Shown: positions 1 through 6,647 of the stretch, in pieces | Position numbering within the stretch: the stretch's first letter is position 1 | Layout of the letters: the number at the start of each line of letters is the position of its first letter | Notes under the pieces: model-generated | Databases searched by the model: none | What the model was told of the DNA's origin: nothing | The model's input: only the letters and a program-made list of their open reading frames with translations | Made by a program: the position numbers and the translations under genes | Assembly (NCBI GenBank): GCA_018901625.1 | Contig: JAHIEM010000099.1 | Coordinates: 1 to 6,647, forward strand | Direction: 5' to 3' | Length of the DNA stretch: 6,647 nucleotides | Source of the DNA: Nanobdellota archaeon | Lineage (GTDB): Archaea; Nanobdellota; Nanobdellia; Pacearchaeales; GW2011-AR1

Positions 1-382
1 CATTTGAGATGTCTTGGGATACTGTTCGGATAGTACACTCTTTTTCATTCTGTTCTGCAATAACAAATCCTATGAATGCGTTCTTGATTATCTCTCCTAT
101 TGTTTTTACAGCAGAGAGATTGTCGTATTTTATTTTTATTATGTCACATCCCATTTTATACAAGCTCGCAAGATACCATCCAGTTGTCCTGTTGTTTAAA
201 TTGCTTATGTCAATCTCTATCTTTTTCTCTTCTTTTTTTCCTCTTCCTCCAATTACCAGCTCGCTTCCTCTCTCTTCCACATCTATCTCATCGCCTTTCT
301 TTATGCCCTGCTGCTTTACCCATTTTGAGGGTAAACTAACCACGATTGTCTGTTTTGCGAGCTGGATTGCTTTTCTTTTCAT
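1..382 (-). CDS. AbrB/SpoVT-domain DNA-binding protein; N-terminal 127 codons only, the 3' end runs off the left edge
   Basis: This ORF is not in the supplied track because it has no stop in the window. My reverse-complement translation from the ATG at 382-380 gives MKRKAIQLAKQTIVVSLPSKWVKQQGIKKGDEIDVEERGSELVIGGRGKKEEKKIEIDISNLNNRTTGWYLASLYKMGCDIIKIKYDNLSAVKTIGEIIKNAFIGFVIAEQNEKECTIRTVSQDISN, and the frame stays open to position 2. The stretch 'VVSLPSKWVKQQGIKKGDEIDVEERGSELVI' fits the SpoVT/AbrB (MazE-like) swapped-hairpin signature. A TATATAAA box on this strand (404-411) ends 21 nt before the ATG. The plus-strand ORFs listed here are low-complexity antisense shadows. Confidence 0.7.
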   Translation of the reverse strand, partial: MKRKAIQLAKQTIVVSLPSKWVKQQGIKKGDEIDVEERGSELVIGGRGKKEEKKIEIDISNLNNRTTGWYLASLYKMGCDIIKIKYDNLSAVKTIGEIIKNAFIGFVIAEQNEKECTIRTVSQDISN

Positions 383-491: not shown

Positions 492-812
492 ATGAAAAGT
501 AAAGTTTTGCTTGGAATCTTGTCATTTGGGATTCTTTTTCTTGTTTTAGTCAGTTCTATTGAAGGTGTAACTGCTGTTAGTTTCAGCAAGGGGGATCTTG
601 TTAAGGTTATCAATGCAGGAAGTATAGGTCTTGCGGTGAGAGGTCCGACTGCTTGCAGTCCATCTTTGCAAAAGGCAAGATATGATGGTTACACTGGGTA
701 TGTAATGGACGGGCCAGATAGCAGTTGTGGGGACGGGTATACTCGTTGGAAAATACACTGGGATATTGATAGTGTTGAGGGTTGGACTATTGATACTTAT
801 GGAGGCAACTGA
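492..812 (+). CDS. Small secreted protein with a bacterial-SH3-like (SH3b / SH3_3-type) domain
   Basis: This is the 106-aa track ORF. The N-terminus MKSKVLLGILSFGILFLVLVSSIEGVTA looks like a signal peptide, with a Lys-rich n-region followed by a hydrophobic core. The mature part, GDLVKVINAGSIGLAVRGPTACSPSLQKARYDGYTGYVMDGP...GYTRWKIHWDIDSVEGWTIDTY, follows the SH3b pattern (G-D-x-V, hydrophobic-x-V-R-x-G-P, G-x-x-G-x-V, W-x-(V/I), G-W). It has two Cys residues (C55 and C79 of the precursor). Confidence 0.6.
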   Translation: MKSKVLLGILSFGILFLVLVSSIEGVTAVSFSKGDLVKVINAGSIGLAVRGPTACSPSLQKARYDGYTGYVMDGPDSSCGDGYTRWKIHWDIDSVEGWTIDTYGGN

Positions 813-815
813 AAA

Positions 816-1238
816 ATGGTACGAGCATTAGTTGTTGAGGACCATGATAAATGGCAAAAGTTTCATAAAAATTGTCTAGAATCTATTTTAGGAAAAGGAA
901 GTGTAGATATTGCAAATAATTACGAGGATGCTATCTCTATGTTAAATCAAGATTATGGGGTGTATATCATAGATGGGCAATTTCTCAGATGTCCTGATGG
1001 TGACCTACAGGTATTGGGAATTCAATTAGCCAAAGAAATTGGAAAGAAAGAAGGTAGTTATGATAAAATTGTAATGGTAAGCAGCAGCGAGGATAGTTTA
1101 TCCAGAGCGCAAAGACTAGGAATAACCCAAGTTTATAATAAATTTTCTCTAAATGCTGACGAAAATGAAGTTGGTGTTTTTTCACGAGATTTGAGGGCTT
1201 TTTTATTAGATACTGAAGCTACTTTATGTGCGGGTTAA
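816..1238 (+). CDS. Stand-alone CheY-like receiver (REC) domain protein with no output domain
   Basis: The ORF encodes 140 aa. GGAGG at 801-805 lies 10 nt upstream of the ATG, and the start is 3 nt after the upstream stop. The REC landmarks are in register: acidic pocket E8-D9 (ALVVEDHD), putative phospho-acceptor D53 (VYIIDGQF), S89-S91 at the end of beta4 (IVMVSSS), and K109 (VYNKF). Confidence 0.75.
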   Translation: MVRALVVEDHDKWQKFHKNCLESILGKGSVDIANNYEDAISMLNQDYGVYIIDGQFLRCPDGDLQVLGIQLAKEIGKKEGSYDKIVMVSSSEDSLSRAQRLGITQVYNKFSLNADENEVGVFSRDLRAFLLDTEATLCAG

Positions 1239-1244
1239 ATTAAG

Positions 1245-2348
1245 ATGATAGACAAAAATTTTGAAGCAACCAAAAGCAGACATTCAGATATATCTGATTT
1301 GGAATTACATTTTTATAACATGAAATATCGGGGAATAAATGACTCTGTAATGGAGTCTGGAGGTGATAGACCAATTTTTTATCTTTTTGATGACAAAAAT
1401 TTTGGGTTGATTTCGTTTATGCTTTCTGAAGATTCTCCTTATAGGATACATAAAGACCGGATACTGTTTAATGATGAAGAATTAAATTTCAGGAATATTC
1501 TTTTTACTCGTTTAGGAAATACATTGCCGTATTATTATTTTAGAGGACCTCATGGAATGTTTCCAAGTTTGCAGGATAGTAAAATTCTTAATGTAAATTT
1601 TAATCCTAAATGCGGCGGATGTGACTTTTGTTTTTACGTATACAGGACTAAACAACTAGAAAATATCACTCCCCAACAAGGTTTTAAAAAAATTGAAGCA
1701 GAAACAGGATTAAATGAACTTAGCTGCCTGGATGAGATAGCTATTGTTACTGGGAGATTTGAATCTGAGGATATGTTAAAAGTTCACATTTTGGATGTAA
1801 TCAATCAGGCAGAAGAAAGAGGATTTGATGGAAGAATTTTTTATATTGGATCACAGTTGGTGACTCCTAGTTGTATAGGGGAAATTTCAAAGAGATTAAA
1901 AAATGATTCAGATAGGTTCAGGTGTGCTTATACTATTGAACGATTCTTTGATAGAAGTTCTATCATGCATGGATCTAAAGGAAAGAAAGATTATCCCGAG
2001 ATATTAAGTGATATGAAAAATCTTAAGAATCTTGGCGTAGGCAAATTAGAGTATACTTATCTTGTAGGTATTGAGGACTTTGATGAATTTAAACAAGGTG
2101 CTGAGGAATTAGTTCATATCGCTATACCTCATATCTCTATTCTGAGAAAGACAGGTCGAAATGCAAATCAATTAACATTGTCAAGGGATTATGTTGAAGG
2201 CGGGCCTGATTATATCTGCCAGATAAGAAAACATTATGAGGATTTATACGGTGGCAAGATTATAGGAAATAATTTTGCGAATCTATGGCTTTTTCCGATT
2301 AGTGACTTTAATTTTTCATCTTATTTAAATCGCTTATCTTCAGTTTGA
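1245..2348 (+). CDS. Radical-SAM-like enzyme with a non-canonical CX2CX2C cluster motif and a roughly 110-aa N-terminal extension of unknown function
   Basis: The ORF encodes 367 aa and starts 6 nt after the REC stop. ILNVNFNPKCGGCDFCFYVY (C123, C126, C129; nt 1611-1631) sits after a beta-strand, as in radical SAM enzymes, and keeps the aromatic residue before the last Cys. However, the first spacing is 2 residues rather than 3. Downstream there are alternating strand-like segments (EIAIVTGRFE, RIFYIGSQL, RCAYTIERF, LEYTYLVGIEDF, IPHISILRKTG) consistent with a partial TIM barrel. There is no C-terminal Cys cluster, so no SPASM or twitch domain. The gene call is firm and the family call is tentative. 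Confidence 0.6.
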   Translation: MIDKNFEATKSRHSDISDLELHFYNMKYRGINDSVMESGGDRPIFYLFDDKNFGLISFMLSEDSPYRIHKDRILFNDEELNFRNILFTRLGNTLPYYYFRGPHGMFPSLQDSKILNVNFNPKCGGCDFCFYVYRTKQLENITPQQGFKKIEAETGLNELSCLDEIAIVTGRFESEDMLKVHILDVINQAEERGFDGRIFYIGSQLVTPSCIGEISKRLKNDSDRFRCAYTIERFFDRSSIMHGSKGKKDYPEILSDMKNLKNLGVGKLEYTYLVGIEDFDEFKQGAEELVHIAIPHISILRKTGRNANQLTLSRDYVEGGPDYICQIRKHYEDLYGGKIIGNNFANLWLFPISDFNFSSYLNRLSSV

Positions 2349-2380: not shown

Positions 2381-2938
2381 ATGGGAAACTATAAAACAAC
2401 AAACACTACGGGTGCATCAGATGTTTTATTTGGGATACGCACATCTAAGGCAGAAGATCGTCGTACTGGAGAAGCTGGAAGGGGAGCAGGATTTACACAA
2501 GATGAAGCTGACAAAAGTGCATTTAGTCATCTTAAAGGAGCAGATCCTAATGATTCTCGTTATGAGGGGGGCGATAGTGGCGAAGGTTCTGGAGGAAGTT
2601 CGGGAGGAGATTCTGGAGGAAGCTGCTGTTATGTAACAACTGCATGTTTAGACGCACTGGGTTTGCCGAGAGATTCGCTGGAAATGAGAGCAATGAAAAC
2701 TCTCACAAGAGAGCATATACTCAAATCCTTTAGTGGAAAGAGAGATTATGTTTTGTACGGAAGAAAAGGACCTTTAATTGTTCAGGCAATAGGAGCAAGA
2801 GAAGATTCTCAAGGAATCTGGAAACGGATTTATGAAAAATTGCAAGATGTAACTTCTAGTGTTTTGTCTAGTAACTATGAGAGAGGTCATCAACTGTATA
2901 AAGAGTTAATCTTAGGACTAGAGGCGCAATTTGTCTGA
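2381..2938 (+). CDS. Bipartite protein of unknown function: a disordered Gly/Ser/Asp-rich N-terminal half (residues 1-81) joined to a helical C-terminal domain that begins CCYVTTAC
   Basis: The track ORF starts at a TTG at 2345. I prefer the ATG at 2381, because AAGGGGGT at 2363-2370 lies 10 nt upstream of it. This gives 185 aa: MGNYKTTNTTGASDVLFGIRTSKAEDRRTGEAGRGAGFTQDEADKSAFSHLKGADPNDSRYEGGDSGEGSGGSSGGDSGGS-CCYVTTACLDALGLPRDSLEMRAMKTLTREHIL.... By hand count, roughly four fifths of third codon positions in this frame are A/T and first positions are G-rich. That supports this frame over the overlapping frame at 2373-2636. Confidence 0.7.
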   Translation: MGNYKTTNTTGASDVLFGIRTSKAEDRRTGEAGRGAGFTQDEADKSAFSHLKGADPNDSRYEGGDSGEGSGGSSGGDSGGSCCYVTTACLDALGLPRDSLEMRAMKTLTREHILKSFSGKRDYVLYGRKGPLIVQAIGAREDSQGIWKRIYEKLQDVTSSVLSSNYERGHQLYKELILGLEAQFV

Positions 2939-3010: not shown

Positions 3011-3031
3011 TCTCAATTATCTATGTTTTTT

Positions 3032-3613
3032 ATGAATAATAAATACGTGCTGGTTTCATTTGATGATGAGAGAATGAAGAGCATTTCTGAGGTTTTAGGA
3101 AATGCGTCGTGCAAGAAGATTTTGAACTTGCTGGCTGAGAGGAACTCATCTGAAACTGATATTTCTCGCGAGTTGGGAATGCCTCTGAATACAGTTGGGT
3201 ATAATGTTAAAAAATTAGTTGAAGCTGGGCTGATTGAGAGAGCAGAACATTTCTGGAGTGTGAAGGGGAAGAAGATACCTGTTTATAGAGTTTCTCAGAA
3301 ATCAATTGTTATTTCTCCTAGGCAGAAAACAAAAACTGCACTAAAATTGCTTCCTGTTCTGATAGTTTCTGGAATAGCAGCTCTACTGATAAGGTTCTTT
3401 AGTTTTTCTGAAAAAGCGATGTTATCTGTTAATGACAAGGTTGCGGGGGCGAGTTTAGAATCTGCTCCTTCTGCTGGTGTTAATTTGGCAAGTTATTCTT
3501 TATGGGACAAGATAATTTCCCTGCCTGCTTGGGAGTGGTTTTTAGCTGGGGCTTTATTCTCTTTGATTGTTTATTTTGTTTTTAGTCTAATAGCTGAAAG
3601 GAGGAAATTTTAG
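3032..3613 (+). CDS. Membrane-anchored ArsR-family winged-helix transcription regulator-like protein
   Basis: The ORF encodes 193 aa from MNNKY. The track start at 3023 would add MFF. The N-terminal wHTH region is ISEVLGNASCKKILNLLAERNSSETDISRELGMPLNTVGYNVKKLVEAGLIERAE...KKIPVYRV (ArsR / HTH_5-like). Two hydrophobic helices follow: LKLLPVLIVSGIAALLIRFF and WEWFLAGALFSLIVYFVFSLIA. Confidence 0.75.
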   Translation: MNNKYVLVSFDDERMKSISEVLGNASCKKILNLLAERNSSETDISRELGMPLNTVGYNVKKLVEAGLIERAEHFWSVKGKKIPVYRVSQKSIVISPRQKTKTALKLLPVLIVSGIAALLIRFFSFSEKAMLSVNDKVAGASLESAPSAGVNLASYSLWDKIISLPAWEWFLAGALFSLIVYFVFSLIAERRKF

Positions 3614-3614
3614 A

Positions 3615-4355
3615 ATGGAAAAATCAGTTCAAATAACTTTGATAATTGCTGCTGCTATAATCATAGTTGCGCTTATTGGGGTATACTCCTTTTTCCAGGT
3701 TATGCCTGTAACTAGGAATACTGTGAATGTTCAGGGAACTAGCCAGGTTAAGGCTGTTCCTGACTTAGTTAGTTTGTATTTCTCTGTGCAGACTCAAGGA
3801 ACTAGCAGCCAGGAAGCTAATGATAAGAACTCGGAGATTGTTGATAATGTTATTACTAACTTAGTCAAGCTGGGATTTGAGAGAAAGGAGATAACTACTG
3901 AAGGATTTAATGTTTATCCTGATTATTCCTGGAGCAGTGGGCAACAGAAACTTATTGGATATAAAGCATCTCATAATATCAAGCTAGAGATGTCAACTTC
4001 TAGAACTGATAAAATCGGTGGAGCTATTGATGCTGGCGTAGATGCAGGGGCATTAGTAAGATATATTAATTTTGAGTTGAGTGTTGAAAAACAAAATGAG
4101 TATAAGGCTCTTGCTTTGAAACAAGCTTCAGAAGATGCGAGAATAAAAGCTGAATCTGTTGCTAGTGGATTAGGAAAGAGAGTTGGAAGCTTGGTTTCAG
4201 TATCTGTGTCAGATTTTGGATATTCTCCTTGGGCTCTATATAGCAATGATGCTATGGTTTCAGGAGCAGCAGAGGCAAAATCAGCAACTACAAGCATACA
4301 GCCTGGAGAAAAAGACATAAACGCAAATGTTCAGGCAGTTTTCAGCCTCAAGTGA
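3615..4355 (+). CDS. SIMPL (DUF541) domain protein with an N-terminal membrane anchor
   Basis: The ORF encodes 246 aa. GGAGG at 3600-3604 lies 10 nt upstream of the ATG, and the start is 1 nt after the upstream stop. The N-terminal TM segment is ITLIIAAAIIIVALIGVYSFF. The SIMPL hallmarks are present: V.G......PD......FSV......A.EA, YPDY, GY.ASH...L, ALKQASEDARIKAE..A..LG and the C-terminal IQPGEKDINANVQAVFSL. Confidence 0.8.
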   Translation: MEKSVQITLIIAAAIIIVALIGVYSFFQVMPVTRNTVNVQGTSQVKAVPDLVSLYFSVQTQGTSSQEANDKNSEIVDNVITNLVKLGFERKEITTEGFNVYPDYSWSSGQQKLIGYKASHNIKLEMSTSRTDKIGGAIDAGVDAGALVRYINFELSVEKQNEYKALALKQASEDARIKAESVASGLGKRVGSLVSVSVSDFGYSPWALYSNDAMVSGAAEAKSATTSIQPGEKDINANVQAVFSLK

Positions 4356-4399: not shown

Positions 4400-4691
4400 T
4401 CAAAATCGTAAGATTTTGAGCACTGTCAGAACCTCAAAGTCGCAAACGAGTTAGTTTCAGCGTCATTTGCTATGAGATAATTTTTTACTATTTCTTTTAT
4501 TTTTTATTTTTATTTAGTTAGTCTAAAGAAAACCTACTGAACGTGCAAATATAACAATTCACCTATAATCCTATTTAGACTTCAAAAATCCTTGACCCTC
4601 CTTGTTTGAACATGGAGTTGCGTTGGATTTTTGACAGTGTTCAAGAACCGCACGGCGTTTCACGCCTTGGACTTCAGTCCACGGTTCTTGA
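4400..4691. repeat. Cluster of related perfect palindromes and an inverted repeat flanking an AT-rich tract. Unclassified; it could be a structured RNA, a MITE or IS remnant, or a protein-binding array
   Basis: Hairpin A is TCAAAATC (4400-4407), GTAA, GATTTTGA (4412-4419). Hairpin B1 is TCAAAAATCC (4582-4591), 33 nt, GGATTTTTGA (4625-4634). Hairpin B2 is TCAAGAACCG (4641-4650), 31 nt, CGGTTCTTGA (4682-4691). The B2 loop itself folds into GGCGT-TTC-ACGCC (4654-4666) and TGGAC-TTCA-GTCCA (4668-4681). The arms of A, B1 and B2 are mutually similar. An inverted repeat, TTGAGCACTGTCA (4416-4428) and TGACAGTGTTCAA (4632-4644), matches at 12 of 13 positions. The tract at about 4475-4530 is almost pure A/T. 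Confidence 0.5.
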
Positions 4692-4740
4692 CATAGGTTA
4701 AAGAATAGATTGTCAGCTTCTGCTTGATTTTTAGATATCT

Positions 4741-4748
4741 TTTTATAT
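4741..4748 (+). promoter_or_regulatory. Archaeal TATA box for gatD
   Basis: The sequence is ttttatat and ends 20 nt before the ATG at 4769. This supports 4769 as the start rather than the upstream TTG at 4724. Confidence 0.4.
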
Positions 4749-4768
4749 CTTCATTGTTTGTGTTTTTC

Positions 4769-6034
4769 ATGGAAGCAAAACCCGGGGATAGAGTCAGCAT
4801 CAGAACAGTTCACGAGACTTTAGAGGGAACTCTAGTTGAGAGCTATGAGGCGGGAATTGTTTTATTGAAATTAAGAAATGGGTATAATTTTGGAATTAAG
4901 AAAGAAGACATAGTTTCTATTGATTTAATTGGCAAGAAAAAAGAAGGCAAGAAAAAAGAAGCTAGGAAAGTTAATTCAAAACTTCCAAATGTTGATGTGA
5001 TAATCACTGGGGGAACTATTTCATCAAGAGTTGATTATCAGACCGGGGGTGTTAAGTGGCTTACTAATCCTGAAGAGTTATTTGAACTATATCCTGAGAT
5101 TTTTGAGATTTGCAATGTAAGGAAAGTTGAGATTCCGTTTATGAAAGCGAGTGAGAATATGGATTATAAAGATTGGCAGGAGATTGCCAAGATTTGCGAG
5201 AAGAGCCTGAATGATGGTGACTGCGAGGGAGTTATAATTACTCACGGAACTGATTTCTTGCATTATACTGCTGCTGCTCTTAGTTTCTTTTTAAAAGATT
5301 TAAACAAGCCTGTTGTTCTAACTTACTCACAGAGAAGTTCAGACAGGGCTAGTTCAGATGCTGCTCTAAACCTGCAGTGCGCTGCGAGAGTTGCTTGTTC
5401 AGATATTGCAGAGGTTGTTTTAGTTGGGCACGCATCTAGTAATGATGATTTCTGTTATGCTTTGCGGGGGAGCAAGGTTAGAAAACTGCATTCTTCAAGA
5501 AGAGATGCATTCAAGCCAGTGAATACCATGGCTATTGCCAGAGTTTTTCCTGATAGGATTGAAACAATTACCGGGCATAGAACTAGAGATGATAACAAGA
5601 AGGTTAAATTAGACGATGGCTTTAATGATAAAATTGCTCTGATTAAGTTTTATCCTGGTATGGACCCTGAGATATTTGATTTTTTATCAACAAGATACCA
5701 TGGTGTTGTGATTGAGGTTTCTGGATTGGGGCATCTGGCTATTGATGAGGCTAGGAAAAATTTACTGCCTGCTATTAAACGAGCTATTGATAATGGGCTG
5801 ATTGTTTGCGCAGCCTGCCAAACTGTTTATGGAAGACTTGATCCATTAGTCTATTCACCTGGCAGAAAGCTAATGAATTATGGCATAATCTTTCTTGGGG
5901 ATATGCTTGCTGAGACTGCTTATGTTAAATTGGGGTTTGTTTTAGGGCATCGCCAGTGGAAGACGAAGGAACAAATAAGAGAGAAGATGCTTGAGAATAT
6001 TTCTGGAGAGTTTAATAATAGGCTAGAAGGGTGA
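4769..6034 (+). CDS. gatD: Glutamyl-tRNA(Gln) amidotransferase subunit D (archaeal GatD)
   Basis: The ORF encodes 421 aa from MEAKPGDRVSIRT. It has a small N-terminal beta domain, then a Lys-rich linker, then an asparaginase-like domain. That domain carries the nucleophile motif VIITGGTISSRVDYQTGGV and a second motif VIITHGTDFL. The domain order and length are typical of GatD. The 15 residues added by the TTG at 4724 (MIFRYLFISSLFVFF) overlap the TATA box and are probably not translated. Confidence 0.92.
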   Translation: MEAKPGDRVSIRTVHETLEGTLVESYEAGIVLLKLRNGYNFGIKKEDIVSIDLIGKKKEGKKKEARKVNSKLPNVDVIITGGTISSRVDYQTGGVKWLTNPEELFELYPEIFEICNVRKVEIPFMKASENMDYKDWQEIAKICEKSLNDGDCEGVIITHGTDFLHYTAAALSFFLKDLNKPVVLTYSQRSSDRASSDAALNLQCAARVACSDIAEVVLVGHASSNDDFCYALRGSKVRKLHSSRRDAFKPVNTMAIARVFPDRIETITGHRTRDDNKKVKLDDGFNDKIALIKFYPGMDPEIFDFLSTRYHGVVIEVSGLGHLAIDEARKNLLPAIKRAIDNGLIVCAACQTVYGRLDPLVYSPGRKLMNYGIIFLGDMLAETAYVKLGFVLGHRQWKTKEQIREKMLENISGEFNNRLEG

Positions 6035-6217
6035 CTAAGAGATAGAGAACCTATTAACTGCTATCTGTTGGAGAAAAATTATCTGCTCATAAATATCAGG
6101 GGCGATTGTTTGACAATTAATTAAGGGGGGGTTATTCTTTTGGTTTTAAGCATAGTCGCTAAGAAGTCCATATCCTAAATCGCAATTAGGTTATGGATGA
6201 ATTGGAAAATAGAAAGG

Positions 6218-6225
6218 TATATAAA
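6218..6225 (+). promoter_or_regulatory. Archaeal TATA box for the small RHH-like ORF and tnpB
   Basis: The sequence is tatataaa and ends 21 nt before the ATG at 6247, the same geometry as the other promoters. It lies inside the alternative longer ORF from the ATG at 6193, which argues against that start. Confidence 0.45.
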
Positions 6226-6246
6226 GGCATTGTGTGTCTATTGTGT

Positions 6247-6366
6247 ATGAAACAAAGAACGAATATACAAATAGAACATAAAACTTTAGAAAAACTAAAA
6301 AAGTTAAGAATCACGAAAAGAGAAACTTATGACGAAATAATAAATCGTTTGATGAAACAAAAATGA
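6247..6366 (+). CDS. 39-aa ribbon-helix-helix-like (CopG / antitoxin-like) small protein
   Basis: This ORF is not in the track because it is too short. The sequence is MKQRTNIQIEHKTLEKLKKLRITKRETYDEIINRLMKQK. It reads as a short beta-strand (TNIQIE), helix 1 (HKTLEKLKKL) and helix 2 (ETYDEIINRLM), which matches an RHH layout. Its TGA stop (6364-6366) overlaps the tnpB ATG (6363-6365) as ATGA. Confidence 0.5.
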   Translation: MKQRTNIQIEHKTLEKLKKLRITKRETYDEIINRLMKQK

Positions 6367-6647
6367 CAACAACTTATAAATTCAGATTATACCCAAAAAA
6401 AGAACAACTAGACAAGTTAGACTTGTCTCTGGAAATTTGCAGACAGACTTATAATAATCTTCTCGCAGGACTTGATGAAAGATATACAAAAAATGAACTG
6501 CAAAACTATTTGCTCGATTTGAAAGTTGTAAATCCTGAAATGAATAATGTTTATTCTAAAGTCTTGCAGATGGAAAATCAAAGACTATTCTCAAACCTAT
6601 CATCACTTTCACAAAGAAAAAAACAAGGAAATAAAGTTGGAAGATTA
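6363..6647 (+). CDS. tnpB: IS200/IS605-family TnpB (OrfB) RNA-guided endonuclease; N-terminal 95 codons, truncated by the right edge of the window
   Basis: My translation is MTTTYKFRLYPKKEQLDKLDLSLEICRQTYNNLLAGLDERYTKNELQNYLLDLKVVNPEMNNVYSKVLQMENQRLFSNLSSLSQRKKQGNKVGRL, and the frame is open to the window end. 'YKFRLYPxxxQ....L......R..YN' is the hallmark N-terminus of OrfB/TnpB (HTH_OrfB_IS605 region). The later stretch 'S...Q........S......' is typical of the start of the WED/REC part. Confidence 0.85.
   Translation, partial: MTTTYKFRLYPKKEQLDKLDLSLEICRQTYNNLLAGLDERYTKNELQNYLLDLKVVNPEMNNVYSKVLQMENQRLFSNLSSLSQRKKQGNKVGRL

What the first reader, a model, noticed from the sequence alone, without database searches (positions are those of the whole stretch)
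2381..2938. Gene-4 product: a leader-like disordered Gly/Ser/Asp-rich half fused to a CCYVTTAC-initiated helical domain, a possible substrate of the adjacent enzyme
Residues 1-81 have almost no hydrophobic core and end in GGDSGEGSGGSSGGDSGGS. Residues 82-89 are C-C-Y-V-T-T-A-C, followed by LDALGLPRDSLEMRAMKTLTREHIL and further predicted helices. From memory only, I recall bacterial hypothetical proteins with a domain starting C-(F/Y)-(L/I)-T-(T/S)-A-C-V...GLPDDC.EL..LR.FRD.Y. I cannot name or verify that family, but this sequence follows the same pattern. Its position immediately downstream of a radical-SAM-like gene, with a flexible tract presenting a Cys triad, resembles a precursor-maturase pair. 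At 185 aa, however, it is far larger than typical RiPP precursors.
Basis: partly seen in the sequence, partly recalled or inferred. Interest (0 to 1): 0.66.

Follow-up and report, generated by a model that had tools for sequence, protein, structure and literature searches.

The report
Divergent CFI-box protein beside radical SAM
Gene 4 is a real small archaeal protein whose C-terminal half belongs to a widespread but uncharacterised cysteine-box helical domain family (CFI-box-CTERM). Its position next to a radical-SAM-like gene looks largely incidental, although a sister group of the same protein is consistently paired with a different radical SAM maturase.

Summary
The ORF at 2381-2938 (185 aa) is real. 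It has 28 close homologues in Nanoarchaeota/Pacearchaeota metagenomes.

AlphaFold predicts residues 1-53 as a small folded beta-beta-beta-alpha domain. Only residues 54-80 look disordered. Residues 81-185 form a confident five-helix bundle.

The family has about 3,000 representatives. The domain is always the last ~104 residues, often follows a Gly/Ser linker, and is fused to very diverse N-terminal parts.

The family's usual Cys triad is C1, C7 and C17. Here C17 is an invariant Ser99, and an extra Cys82 precedes C1.

Gene 3 is a divergent radical SAM enzyme (CX2CX2C, no SPASM domain). Its constant partner is gene 2. It adjoins a CFI-box gene in only 2 of 7 lineages. Gene 4 lies in a variable island.

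A sister clade carries a [Y/H]SK-GS-HxK-HSK motif. It is adjacent to a DynA/anSME-like rSAM-SPASM gene in 5 of 5 assessable lineages.

Verdict: a new member of a known, uncharacterised domain family. The precursor-maturase idea is partly supported, but not for this gene pair.

The parts
2381..2938 (+). Gene 4 CDS, 185 aa, the modular CFI-box protein
   Evidence: ORF; 28 homologues; alignment A1
2381..2539 (+). Residues 1-53: small lineage-variable N-terminal beta-beta-beta-alpha domain
   Evidence: AlphaFold pLDDT 79-88, E4-8 H12-16 E20-26 E32-37 H40-52. Weak dsRBD / 'ABA sandwich'-like Foldseek matches, rmsd 1.6-2.3 A over about 50 residues but E>0.1. This region cannot be aligned between clades.
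2540..2623 (+). Residues 54-81: disordered Gly/Ser/Asp linker
   Evidence: pLDDT below 50 for residues 54-80; 75% G+S+D; G/S-rich pre-linkers occur in 43 of 133 family members
2624..2935 (+). Residues 82-185: divergent CFI-box-CTERM five-helix domain
   Evidence: pLDDT 93-98; profile search finds 2,987 representatives; hhalign 99.9% to NF041770-positive sequences
2624..2647 (+). CCYVTTAC box (C82, C83, C89)
   Evidence: C83 conserved in 172/172 and C89 in 168/172 across the family; C82 present in 57 of 174
2675..2677 (+). Ser99 codon, at the position of the family's usual third Cys (the 'DDC' Cys)
   Evidence: Column 20: Cys in 112 sequences, Ser in 53; invariant Ser in the DPANN clade
1245..2348 (+). 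Gene 3, 367 aa: divergent radical SAM enzyme without a SPASM or twitch domain
   Evidence: No Pfam hit for the window protein itself. 5 of 22 homologues hit PF04055, best 9.6e-7. Foldseek matches LipA, HydG, NosL, KAM and SkfB at probability 1.0, E 1e-5 to 1e-3.
1611..1631 (+). Gene 3 cluster motif C123-G-G-C126-D-F-C129 (CX2CX2C)
   Evidence: Alignment A2: C123 and C126 invariant, C129 in at least 90%; one homologue (P0046) has the canonical CX3CX2C
816..1238 (+). Gene 2, 140 aa: receiver (CheY)-like protein, the constant partner of gene 3
   Evidence: Response_reg E=8.5e-6, 26.3 bits, below the 30.2 cut-off. Found directly upstream of gene-3 homologues in L013, L016, L049 and L051 at 54-69% identity.
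492..812 (+). Gene 1, 106 aa: small protein with a hydrophobic signal-peptide-like N-terminus
   Evidence: 35% identical to the N-terminus of the 713-aa M23 peptidase encoded just after the gene-3 homologue in L013
8..382 (-). N-terminal 125 codons of an AbrB/MazE-type gene, cut off by the end of the window (its ~300-aa homologues make up neighbour cluster c1); this is the synteny anchor
   Evidence: tblastn 61% identity, E=6e-43; MazE_antitoxin domain; the same anchor flanks gene-4 or gene-3 cassettes in L001, L006, L013, L019 and L020

Best explanation
Gene 4 encodes a soluble modular protein with three parts: a small lineage-specific N-terminal beta3-alpha 'head', a flexible Gly/Ser/Asp tether, and a constant C-terminal five-helix bundle. 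The bundle is a divergent CFI-box-CTERM domain.

Shown:
- The domain belongs to a very large bacterial, archaeal and phage family.
- In that family it is always the last ~104 residues, usually after a low-complexity linker, and is attached to unrelated N-terminal parts.
- The only near-universal residues are the Cys-aromatic-aliphatic-T-T-A-Cys box at the start of helix 1.
- The DPANN clade has swapped the usual third Cys for Ser99 and mostly gained a Cys just before the box.

Inferred:
- The thiol cluster at the mouth of the bundle is the working site. It could bind a metal or cofactor, or act as a covalent-attachment or redox site.
- The bundle is the constant functional module, and the variable head supplies lineage-specific specificity.
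- The protein is not a RiPP-type precursor.
- Gene 4 abuts gene 3 because both lie in a variable cassette region between an abrB/mazE-like gene and gatD. The self-contained unit there is gene 2 plus gene 3.
For: Homology to CFI-box-CTERM.

Architecture: the domain is always terminal and the median protein length is 185 aa. N-terminal partners among 145 representatives include eCIS_core (8), pentapeptide repeats (3), Peptidase_C80 (2), HopA1, TcdB-type glycosyltransferase and others.

Cys conservation: 172/172 and 168/172. The third Cys is present in 112, with Ser in 53. Cys at -1 occurs in 36/53 Ser-type sequences against 17/112 Cys-type sequences (Fisher p=3e-11, not corrected for phylogeny).

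Fold: confident folded bundle plus a folded head.

Conservation pattern: the C-domain is 51-85% identical among close homologues, while the N-terminal parts cannot be aligned.

Weak linkage to gene 3: 2 of 33 gene-4 lineages and 2 of 7 gene-3 lineages. The syntenic interval in L013 lacks gene 4. Close relatives P0004 and P0005 have nearly identical heads but different upstream genes.

Bacterial CFI-box genes on plasmids and in a phage have no rSAM neighbour.
Against: No biochemical function is known for any CFI-box domain. No paper was found in the searchable library and there is no solved or structurally similar protein. The 'thiol site' and 'constant module' roles are therefore inferences from conservation only.

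Genes 1-4 are tightly packed on one strand (gaps of 3, 6 and 32 nt) and look co-transcribed. The gene 3-gene 4 pair recurs in a second lineage (L009). A sister clade is strictly rSAM-linked. A functional tie to gene 3 therefore cannot be excluded.

The window protein itself does not reach the NF041770 threshold.
Confidence: 0.6

Rival explanations
1. One reading: gene 4 protein is the substrate of the adjacent radical SAM enzyme (gene 3). The enzyme would modify the Cys/Thr-rich CCYVTTAC segment presented by the flexible linker, for example by thioether formation, Cys oxidation or methylation. This would be protein-level maturation, as anSME does on sulfatases.
For: Same strand, 32-nt spacer with an SD-like run, operon-like packing, and an oligo-T tract only after gene 4. 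The pair recurs in L009-L011, where the genes overlap. Gene 3 has a genuine rSAM fold. Another CFI-box clade is obligately paired with an rSAM-SPASM enzyme, so CFI-box proteins can be rSAM partners.
Against: Gene 3 homologues in 5 of 7 lineages have no CFI-box gene within 4-5 kb, yet 4 of these 5 keep gene 2. 31 of 33 gene-4 lineages lack gene 3. Window and L009 are close relatives, so the pairing probably reflects one evolutionary event. Gene 3 has no SPASM/twitch or RRE-type peptide-recognition hit. The CFI box is equally conserved in the many family members that have no rSAM neighbour.
Confidence: 0.12
2. The CFI-box bundle is a pure protein-protein adaptor. It would pair homotypically with other CFI-box proteins, or dock onto a conserved machine, in the manner of the effector-associated domains (EADs) and Death-like helical adaptors of bacterial conflict systems. 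It would recruit variable heads or effectors.
For: It is a small, non-enzymatic, all-helical, strictly terminal module on very diverse partners. Bacterial examples sit beside VWA+PP2C genes and dynamin-family genes. This matches the general description of EADs in PMC7159879. One assembly (GCA_017973895.1) carries two paralogues, and P0089 has two tandem copies.
Against: CFI-box is not shown to be any of the published EADs. The defining EAD pattern, one copy on a core component and another on an adjacent effector, was not seen in any locus examined here. Universally invariant cysteines are unusual for a simple cytosolic docking domain.
Confidence: 0.15
3. The CFI-box domain is itself a toxin or effector domain, as C-terminal domains of polymorphic and eCIS-delivered toxins are. 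On this view gene 4 is a small toxin in a variable island.
For: 8 of 145 representatives carry the eCIS_core/DUF4157 cargo marker at the N-terminus with CFI-box at the extreme C-terminus. A podovirus encodes a 994-aa protein ending in the domain, next to its portal gene. Gene 4 lies in a variable genomic region. The preprint 10.1101/2021.10.19.465003 reports a DUF4157-fused C-terminal toxin, PT6, whose identity with CFI-box could not be checked.
Against: In the long bacterial proteins a recognisable effector domain (C80, TcdB-type GT, HopA1) already lies between DUF4157 and CFI-box. In DPANN the C-domain is the conserved part and the N-terminus the variable part, which is the reverse of polymorphic toxins. 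No conserved downstream immunity-like gene was found.
Confidence: 0.08

Closest known systems
CFI-box-CTERM domain (NCBIfam NF041770), used by PGAP to name 'CFI-box-CTERM domain-containing protein'
   Same: Strictly C-terminal ~104-residue helical domain that begins with C-[FY]-[ILV]-T-T-A-C. It follows a low-complexity linker. It shares the G..DY..Y...P.IV..I and later helices. Profile-profile probability is 99.9% over the full length.
   Different: The window protein does not reach the NF041770 score. GLPDDC.EL..LR.FRD is replaced by GLPRDSLEMRAMKTLT. The third Cys is an invariant Ser, and an extra Cys precedes the box. The clade is confined to Nanoarchaeota/Pacearchaeota-type DPANN archaea.
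Triceptide (three-residue cyclophane) precursor/maturase pairs such as HtkA/HtkB (His-C2 to Lys-Cbeta on an HTK motif; PMC11499958), and DynA of dynobactin
   Same: The sister clade of gene 4 carries [Y/H]-S-K ... H-x-K-H-S-K just before the CFI box. It is adjacent to a DynA/anSME-like rSAM-SPASM gene (best NCBIfam hit DynA, 330 bits).
   Different: The window's gene 4 has no aromatic or His triplets in its linker, and its neighbour (gene 3) is an unrelated rSAM without SPASM. The sister-clade 'precursors' are ~170-aa proteins with a folded follower domain, not short peptides. No modification has been demonstrated.
Anaerobic sulfatase-maturating enzyme (anSME) acting on sulfatases
   Same: Precedent for an RRE-less rSAM-SPASM enzyme modifying a Cys in a full-size protein. 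The L002-type enzyme scores 272 bits against TIGR03942.
   Different: That score is below the family cut-off of 349. The target motif C/S-x-P/A-x-R (from my own knowledge) is absent from the CFI box. Gene 3 in the window is not of this type.
Effector-associated domains / bacterial Death-like adaptors (Kaur et al., eLife 2020, PMC7159879)
   Same: Small, terminal, non-enzymatic helical modules fused to many different partners in conflict-type neighbourhoods.
   Different: No sequence or structural link to any EAD was shown. The paired-copy arrangement that defines EADs was not observed. The invariant Cys box has no counterpart in the EAD description.

Membership tests
CFI-box-CTERM (NF041770) | Domain lies at the extreme C-terminus of the protein | tested here: met
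   Domain covers residues 82-185 of 185. In 133 motif-bearing representatives the remainder after the box is 101-110 residues in nearly all.
CFI-box-CTERM (NF041770) | Starts with the Cys-aromatic-aliphatic 'CFI' box (C-[FY]-[ILV]-[TA]-T-A-[CA]) | tested here: met
   C83-Y-V-T-T-A-C89. C83 conserved 172/172 and C89 168/172.
CFI-box-CTERM (NF041770) | Scores above the curated NF041770 cut-off (40 bits) | tested here: not met
   No NCBIfam hit at E<=0.1 for the window protein. Bacterial relatives score 42-63 bits.
CFI-box-CTERM (NF041770) | Demonstrable homology to NF041770-positive sequences over the whole domain | tested here: met
   hhalign A3 vs A5: probability 99.9%, E=3.3e-31, 108 columns. 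hmmsearch E of 1e-14 to 1e-19 to the same proteins.
CFI-box-CTERM (NF041770) | Third Cys and the LR.FRD helix-2 motif (GLPDDC.EL..LR.FRD) | tested here: not met
   GLPRDS99LEMRAMKTLTRE. Ser occupies the Cys column in all 28 close homologues.
RiPP precursor / radical SAM maturase pair | Conserved co-occurrence of precursor and maturase genes | tested here: not met
   Gene 3 is next to gene 4 in 2 of 33 gene-4 lineages and 2 of 7 gene-3 lineages.
RiPP precursor / radical SAM maturase pair | Short precursor with a leader and an unstructured core | tested here: not met
   185 aa with two confidently folded domains. The Cys box is the start of helix 1 of a bundle.
RiPP precursor / radical SAM maturase pair | Maturase carries a peptide-handling accessory domain (SPASM/twitch or RRE) | tested here: not met
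   Gene 3 and its homologues have no SPASM or PqqD hit; only three conserved Cys.
RiPP precursor / radical SAM maturase pair | Enzyme-dependent covalent modification of the precursor | not testable with these tools
   Needs co-expression and mass spectrometry.
Radical SAM superfamily (gene 3) | CX3CX2C cluster-binding motif | tested here: inconclusive
   CX2CX2C (C123-GG-C126-DF-C129) in 20 of 22 homologues. P0046 has CX3CX2C, and P0047 lacks the segment that carries the third Cys.
Radical SAM superfamily (gene 3) | Partial TIM-barrel rSAM core fold / PF04055 similarity | tested here: met
   Foldseek top 23 matches are all rSAM enzymes at probability 0.99-1.0. 5 of 22 homologues hit PF04055. 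PDB rSAM core 9dfu E=0.004.
Triceptide-type system (3-CyFE rSAM-SPASM plus aromatic-X-X motifs) | Adjacent rSAM-SPASM gene and aromatic/His-X-X motifs in the partner | tested here: not met
   Not met in the window: no SPASM enzyme, and the linker has no His or aromatic triplets. Met only in the sister clade.
Effector-associated (EAD-like) adaptor domains | Paired copies: one on a core component and another on a neighbouring effector | not tested
   Only single copies were seen in the loci fetched. Complete genomes were not available.

The most novel reading that the evidence does not exclude
CFI-box proteins of DPANN archaea are protein-sized substrates of radical SAM enzymes. In the sister clade, a DynA/3-CyFE-like rSAM-SPASM would cross-link the [Y/H]SK/HxK/HSK triplets placed just before the CFI box. 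This would give an archaeal 'triceptide' carried on a folded 100-residue follower domain. In the window's clade, the unrelated CX2CX2C radical SAM enzyme (gene 3, with its receiver-like partner gene 2) would modify the CCYVTTAC thiol box. That would make the CFI box a general radical-SAM-addressable module. The probability given is for the window pair. For the sister clade I would put it near 0.5.
Probability: 0.12. Interest if true: 0.75.

Novelty: new member of a known kind. Interest (0 to 1): 0.42.

Why it matters
The analysis gives an anonymous DPANN hypothetical protein a family: a Ser-for-Cys variant of the CFI-box-CTERM domain. It also shows that this named but unstudied domain is a very widespread constant C-terminal module in archaea, bacteria (including eCIS-type cargo proteins) and phages, with a near-universal Cys box. 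That defines a tractable biochemical question: what do the two invariant cysteines do?

The by-product may be more valuable than the finding itself. One archaeal CFI-box clade has His/Tyr-Ser-Lys triplets and an obligate DynA-like rSAM-SPASM neighbour. It is a concrete, testable candidate for a new archaeal cross-linked protein or RiPP class.

Gene 2 plus gene 3 define an uncharacterised radical SAM family with an unusual CX2CX2C motif and a receiver-like partner.

Tried and rejected
- Direct family scans of gene 4 found nothing usable. Pfam, NCBIfam, PHROGs and PADLOC gave only a sub-threshold BssB_TutG match at E=0.06, which I rejected as chance.
- A PDB sequence search with the domain profile gave no hit even at E<=10.
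- Foldseek of the gene 4 model against PDB and BFVD gave nothing with E<0.01. Only the ~50-residue head gave low-rmsd dsRBD / 'ABA sandwich'-like matches that are not statistically significant.
- Literature searches for 'CFI-box' and for the motif strings CFIATAA, CFITTAC, CYITTAC and others found no paper.
- I could not check whether the DUF4157-fused toxin PT6 of preprint 10.1101/2021.10.19.465003 is the CFI-box domain. No sequence is in the text or the held supplement.
- Gene 3 and the L002 rSAM-SPASM are not related beyond the superfamily level: BLASTP E=0.8.
- The genome-contig scan returned only 4 loci because the derived patterns were clade-specific. A census of the whole family's neighbourhoods was therefore not possible.
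- I considered a Hint/intein-like autoprocessing reading of 'G-C-[FY]' and rejected it because the domain is all-helical.
- No tRNA or Rfam family is present in the window.

Full report
THE OBSERVATION

The ORF at 2381-2938 (+) encodes 185 aa. Residues 63-81 are GGDSGEGSGGSSGGDSGGS and residues 82-89 are CCYVTTAC, exactly as reported.

It is a real gene. A search of 5.8 billion proteins returned 28 homologues (E down to 1e-71), all from metagenomes or MAGs labelled Nanoarchaeota or Pacearchaeota. Their N-termini support the ATG at 2381. The window itself is archaeal: it carries gatD at 4724-6034.

An AAGGGGGT run lies 10 nt upstream of the start, and T-runs follow the stop.

The 'disordered half' holds only in part. 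With the 28-sequence alignment, AlphaFold gives:
- a small beta-beta-beta-alpha domain for residues 1-53 (pLDDT 79-88);
- disorder only for residues 54-80 (that linker, residues 54-81, is 75% Gly/Ser/Asp);
- a five-helix bundle for residues 81-185 (pLDDT 93-98).

In the alignment C83, Y84, T86, A88, C89, L90 and S99 are invariant. C82 is Gly in about a third of sequences.

WHAT THE C-TERMINAL DOMAIN IS

No library matched the window protein directly. A profile of the domain (A3) searched against 1.84 billion cluster representatives found 2,987 proteins at E<=1e-3 and 563 at E<=1e-10.

In every hit listed the domain is C-terminal, and the host proteins range from 91 to 1,454 aa (median 185).

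Eight tested members score above the cut-off of NCBIfam NF041770 'CFI_box_CTERM', and PGAP names plasmid-borne examples accordingly.

A profile-profile comparison of the DPANN clade with those NF041770-positive sequences gives 99.9% probability, E=3e-31, over the full 108 columns. Gene 4 is therefore a divergent member of a named but uncharacterised family. I found no paper on the family and no solved or structurally similar protein.

FAMILY ANATOMY

- Of 133 motif-bearing representatives, 43 have a Gly/Ser-rich stretch just before the box. The window's G/S/D tract is therefore the family's normal interdomain linker.
- The box Cys (C1) is conserved 172/172 and C7 168/172. The usual third Cys (the 'DDC' Cys) is present in 112 sequences and is Ser in 53, essentially the DPANN clade.
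- A Cys directly before C1 is present in 36/53 Ser-type sequences but only 17/112 Cys-type sequences (Fisher p=3e-11, not corrected for shared ancestry). This hints that a three-thiol arrangement is maintained by relocating the third Cys.
- N-terminal partners among 145 representatives include eCIS_core/DUF4157 (8), pentapeptide repeats (3), Peptidase_C80 (2), beta-flower (2), HopA1, a TcdB-type glycosyltransferase and one radical SAM fragment.
- Annotated bacterial contexts show a VWA plus PP2C pair, an OmpA-family gene, two dynamin-family genes, and a 994-aa podovirus protein next to the portal gene. None has a radical SAM neighbour.

GENE 3 AND ITS REAL PARTNER

Gene 3 (1245-2348) has no Pfam hit itself. 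However, 5 of 22 homologues hit PF04055, a PDB rSAM core matches at E=0.004, and its AlphaFold model (pLDDT 86) matches LipA, HydG, NosL, lysine 2,3-aminomutase, SkfB and others at probability 1.0.

Its cluster motif is CX2CX2C rather than CX3CX2C; one homologue has the canonical spacing. It has no SPASM domain.

I examined seven gene-3 lineages: window, L009, L013, L016, L049, L051 and L052.
- Only the window and the closely related L009 have a CFI-box gene beside gene 3.
- The other five have none within 4-5 kb by tblastn and hmmsearch. Four of those five retain a gene-2 homologue immediately upstream.
- Gene 2 is a receiver-like 140-aa protein.
- A homologue of gene 1 forms the N-terminus of the M23 peptidase encoded just after gene 3 in L013.

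GENE 4 NEIGHBOURHOODS

Across 33 dereplicated gene-4 lineages the neighbours vary:
- Gene 3: 2 lineages.
- Tandem Lrp/AsnC-type regulator, divergently transcribed: 7 lineages.
- Weak winged-helix protein, divergently transcribed: 5 lineages.
- Various small unknown proteins in the rest.

The left end of the window (382-8, minus strand) encodes an AbrB/MazE-type protein. The same anchor precedes different cassettes in L001, L006, L019, L020 and L013. L013 shares both the anchor and gatD with the window but has no gene 4. P0004 and P0005 have nearly identical heads yet different upstream genes.

Gene 4 therefore sits in a variable region. Its adjacency to gene 3 is best explained as one recent juxtaposition.

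THE SISTER CLADE

One clade (P0012, P0017, P0018, P0020, the L031 protein, and probably P0022 and P0023) has a distinct N-terminus. It carries NP[LI][LM]..[IL]...YN.Y followed by [Y/H]-[S/N]-K-G-S-H-x-[K/N]-[H/Y]-S-K-GGGG immediately before CY[VI]TTAC.

In all five lineages of this clade whose flanks can be assessed, the adjacent same-strand gene is an rSAM-SPASM enzyme.
- It lies upstream in L002 and L022 and downstream in L012, L031 and L060.
- The enzymes are only 50-53% identical to each other.
- The fifth case was a prediction made before the look-up.
- None of 26 other lineages with visible neighbours has such a gene.

The enzyme's best NCBIfam matches are DynA (330 bits, cut-off 450) and anSME (272 bits, cut-off 349), followed by several cyclophane-forming maturases. 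P0092 is a fusion of the first 155 residues of such an enzyme to a CFI-box domain through the same SKGSHSKHNKGG segment.

HxK is an experimentally proven triceptide motif: HtkB makes a His-C2 to Lys-Cbeta link on HTK (PMC11499958). The feature that travels with the rSAM-SPASM gene is the His/Tyr-Ser-Lys segment, not the CFI box. That segment is therefore the likelier target. This is inference; nothing has been shown chemically.

INTERPRETATION

The best-supported reading is that gene 4 is a modular CFI-box protein whose constant, functionally central part is the C-terminal bundle with its invariant thiol box. It is not a RiPP-style precursor of gene 3 (confidence about 0.6 for the whole statement, higher for family membership).

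Adaptor (0.15) and toxin (0.08) readings remain open. What the CFI box does chemically is unknown for the whole family.

NOVELTY AND INTEREST

This is a new, divergent member of a known and named but uncharacterised domain family, so the finding as stated is moderately interesting at best.

The more surprising results lie beside it:
- an obligate CFI-box / DynA-like rSAM-SPASM pairing with HSK triplets in DPANN archaea;
- a CX2CX2C radical SAM family with a receiver-like partner.

Noticed in passing
L002:1214-2838, L012:4759-5882, L022:1-776, L031:950-2258, L060:38-1727: A sister clade of gene 4 carries [Y/H]SK-GS-HxK-HSK-GGGG just before the CFI box. It is adjacent, in either order, to a DynA/anSME-like rSAM-SPASM gene in 5 of 5 assessable lineages. 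This is a candidate archaeal triceptide-like cross-linked protein system.
   Followed up: partly
window 816-2348: Gene 2 (receiver/CheY-like, 140 aa) and gene 3 (radical SAM with CX2CX2C instead of CX3CX2C, no SPASM) form a conserved, tightly coupled pair in at least 5 lineages. Neither its function nor its substrate is known.
   Followed up: partly
window 492-812 and L013:6140-8281: Gene 1, a 106-aa protein with a hydrophobic signal-like N-terminus, is 35% identical to the N-terminus of a 713-aa M23 peptidase encoded right after the gene-3 homologue in L013. A gene-1-like module therefore travels with genes 2 and 3.
   Followed up: no
window 8-382 (-) through 4724-6034: The interval between an AbrB/MazE-type gene and gatD is a variable cassette region. 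Related contigs carry different gene sets there: L013 has genes 2 and 3 plus the M23 peptidase, L006 has three small unknown genes plus gene 4, and L020 has the rSAM-SPASM gene plus gene 4.
   Followed up: partly
window 4628-4704: A GC-rich island (48% against about 30% around it) in the 370-nt gap upstream of gatD folds into a long stem carrying two small hairpins. MFE is -42.4 kcal/mol for the 126-nt stretch 4590-4715 that was folded, z = -3.85 on the + strand. There is no Rfam or tRNA match.
   Followed up: partly
window 6193-6647: A small DUF7557 ORF (6193-6366) is followed by the N-terminus of an IS200/IS605-type TnpB/OrfB protein (HTH_OrfB_IS605, 6363 to the end of the window). A mobile element borders the locus.
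   Followed up: no
P0092 (269 aa): A single ORF fuses the first ~155 residues of a DynA-like radical SAM enzyme to a CFI-box domain through the SKGSHSKHNKGG segment. It is either a natural deletion/fusion or an assembly chimera. It independently links the two gene families.
   Followed up: partly
family alignment, window codons 2624-2626 and 2675-2677: Across 174 family members, a Cys just before the box is common when the usual third Cys is Ser (36/53) and rare when it is Cys (17/112). This suggests the third thiol is relocated rather than lost. The test was not corrected for phylogeny.
   Followed up: partly
P0148, P0158: Some eCIS_core-type bacterial members have runs of Cys immediately before the box (KKCCCCCCFITTAC, KCDCCYITTAC). 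These resemble S-acylation or metal-cluster sites.
   Followed up: no
L059:2412-5396 (podovirus MW202701.1): A 994-aa phage protein encoded between the portal and capsid genes ends in a CFI-box domain. This suggests virion-packaged proteins also use the module.
   Followed up: no
window 3023-4355: Directly downstream of gene 4 lie an ArsR/HTH_20-type regulator whose C-terminal half is hydrophobic (3023-3613) and a SIMPL/DUF541 protein (3615-4355). In 12 other lineages gene 4 is instead flanked by a divergently transcribed HTH regulator.
   Followed up: no
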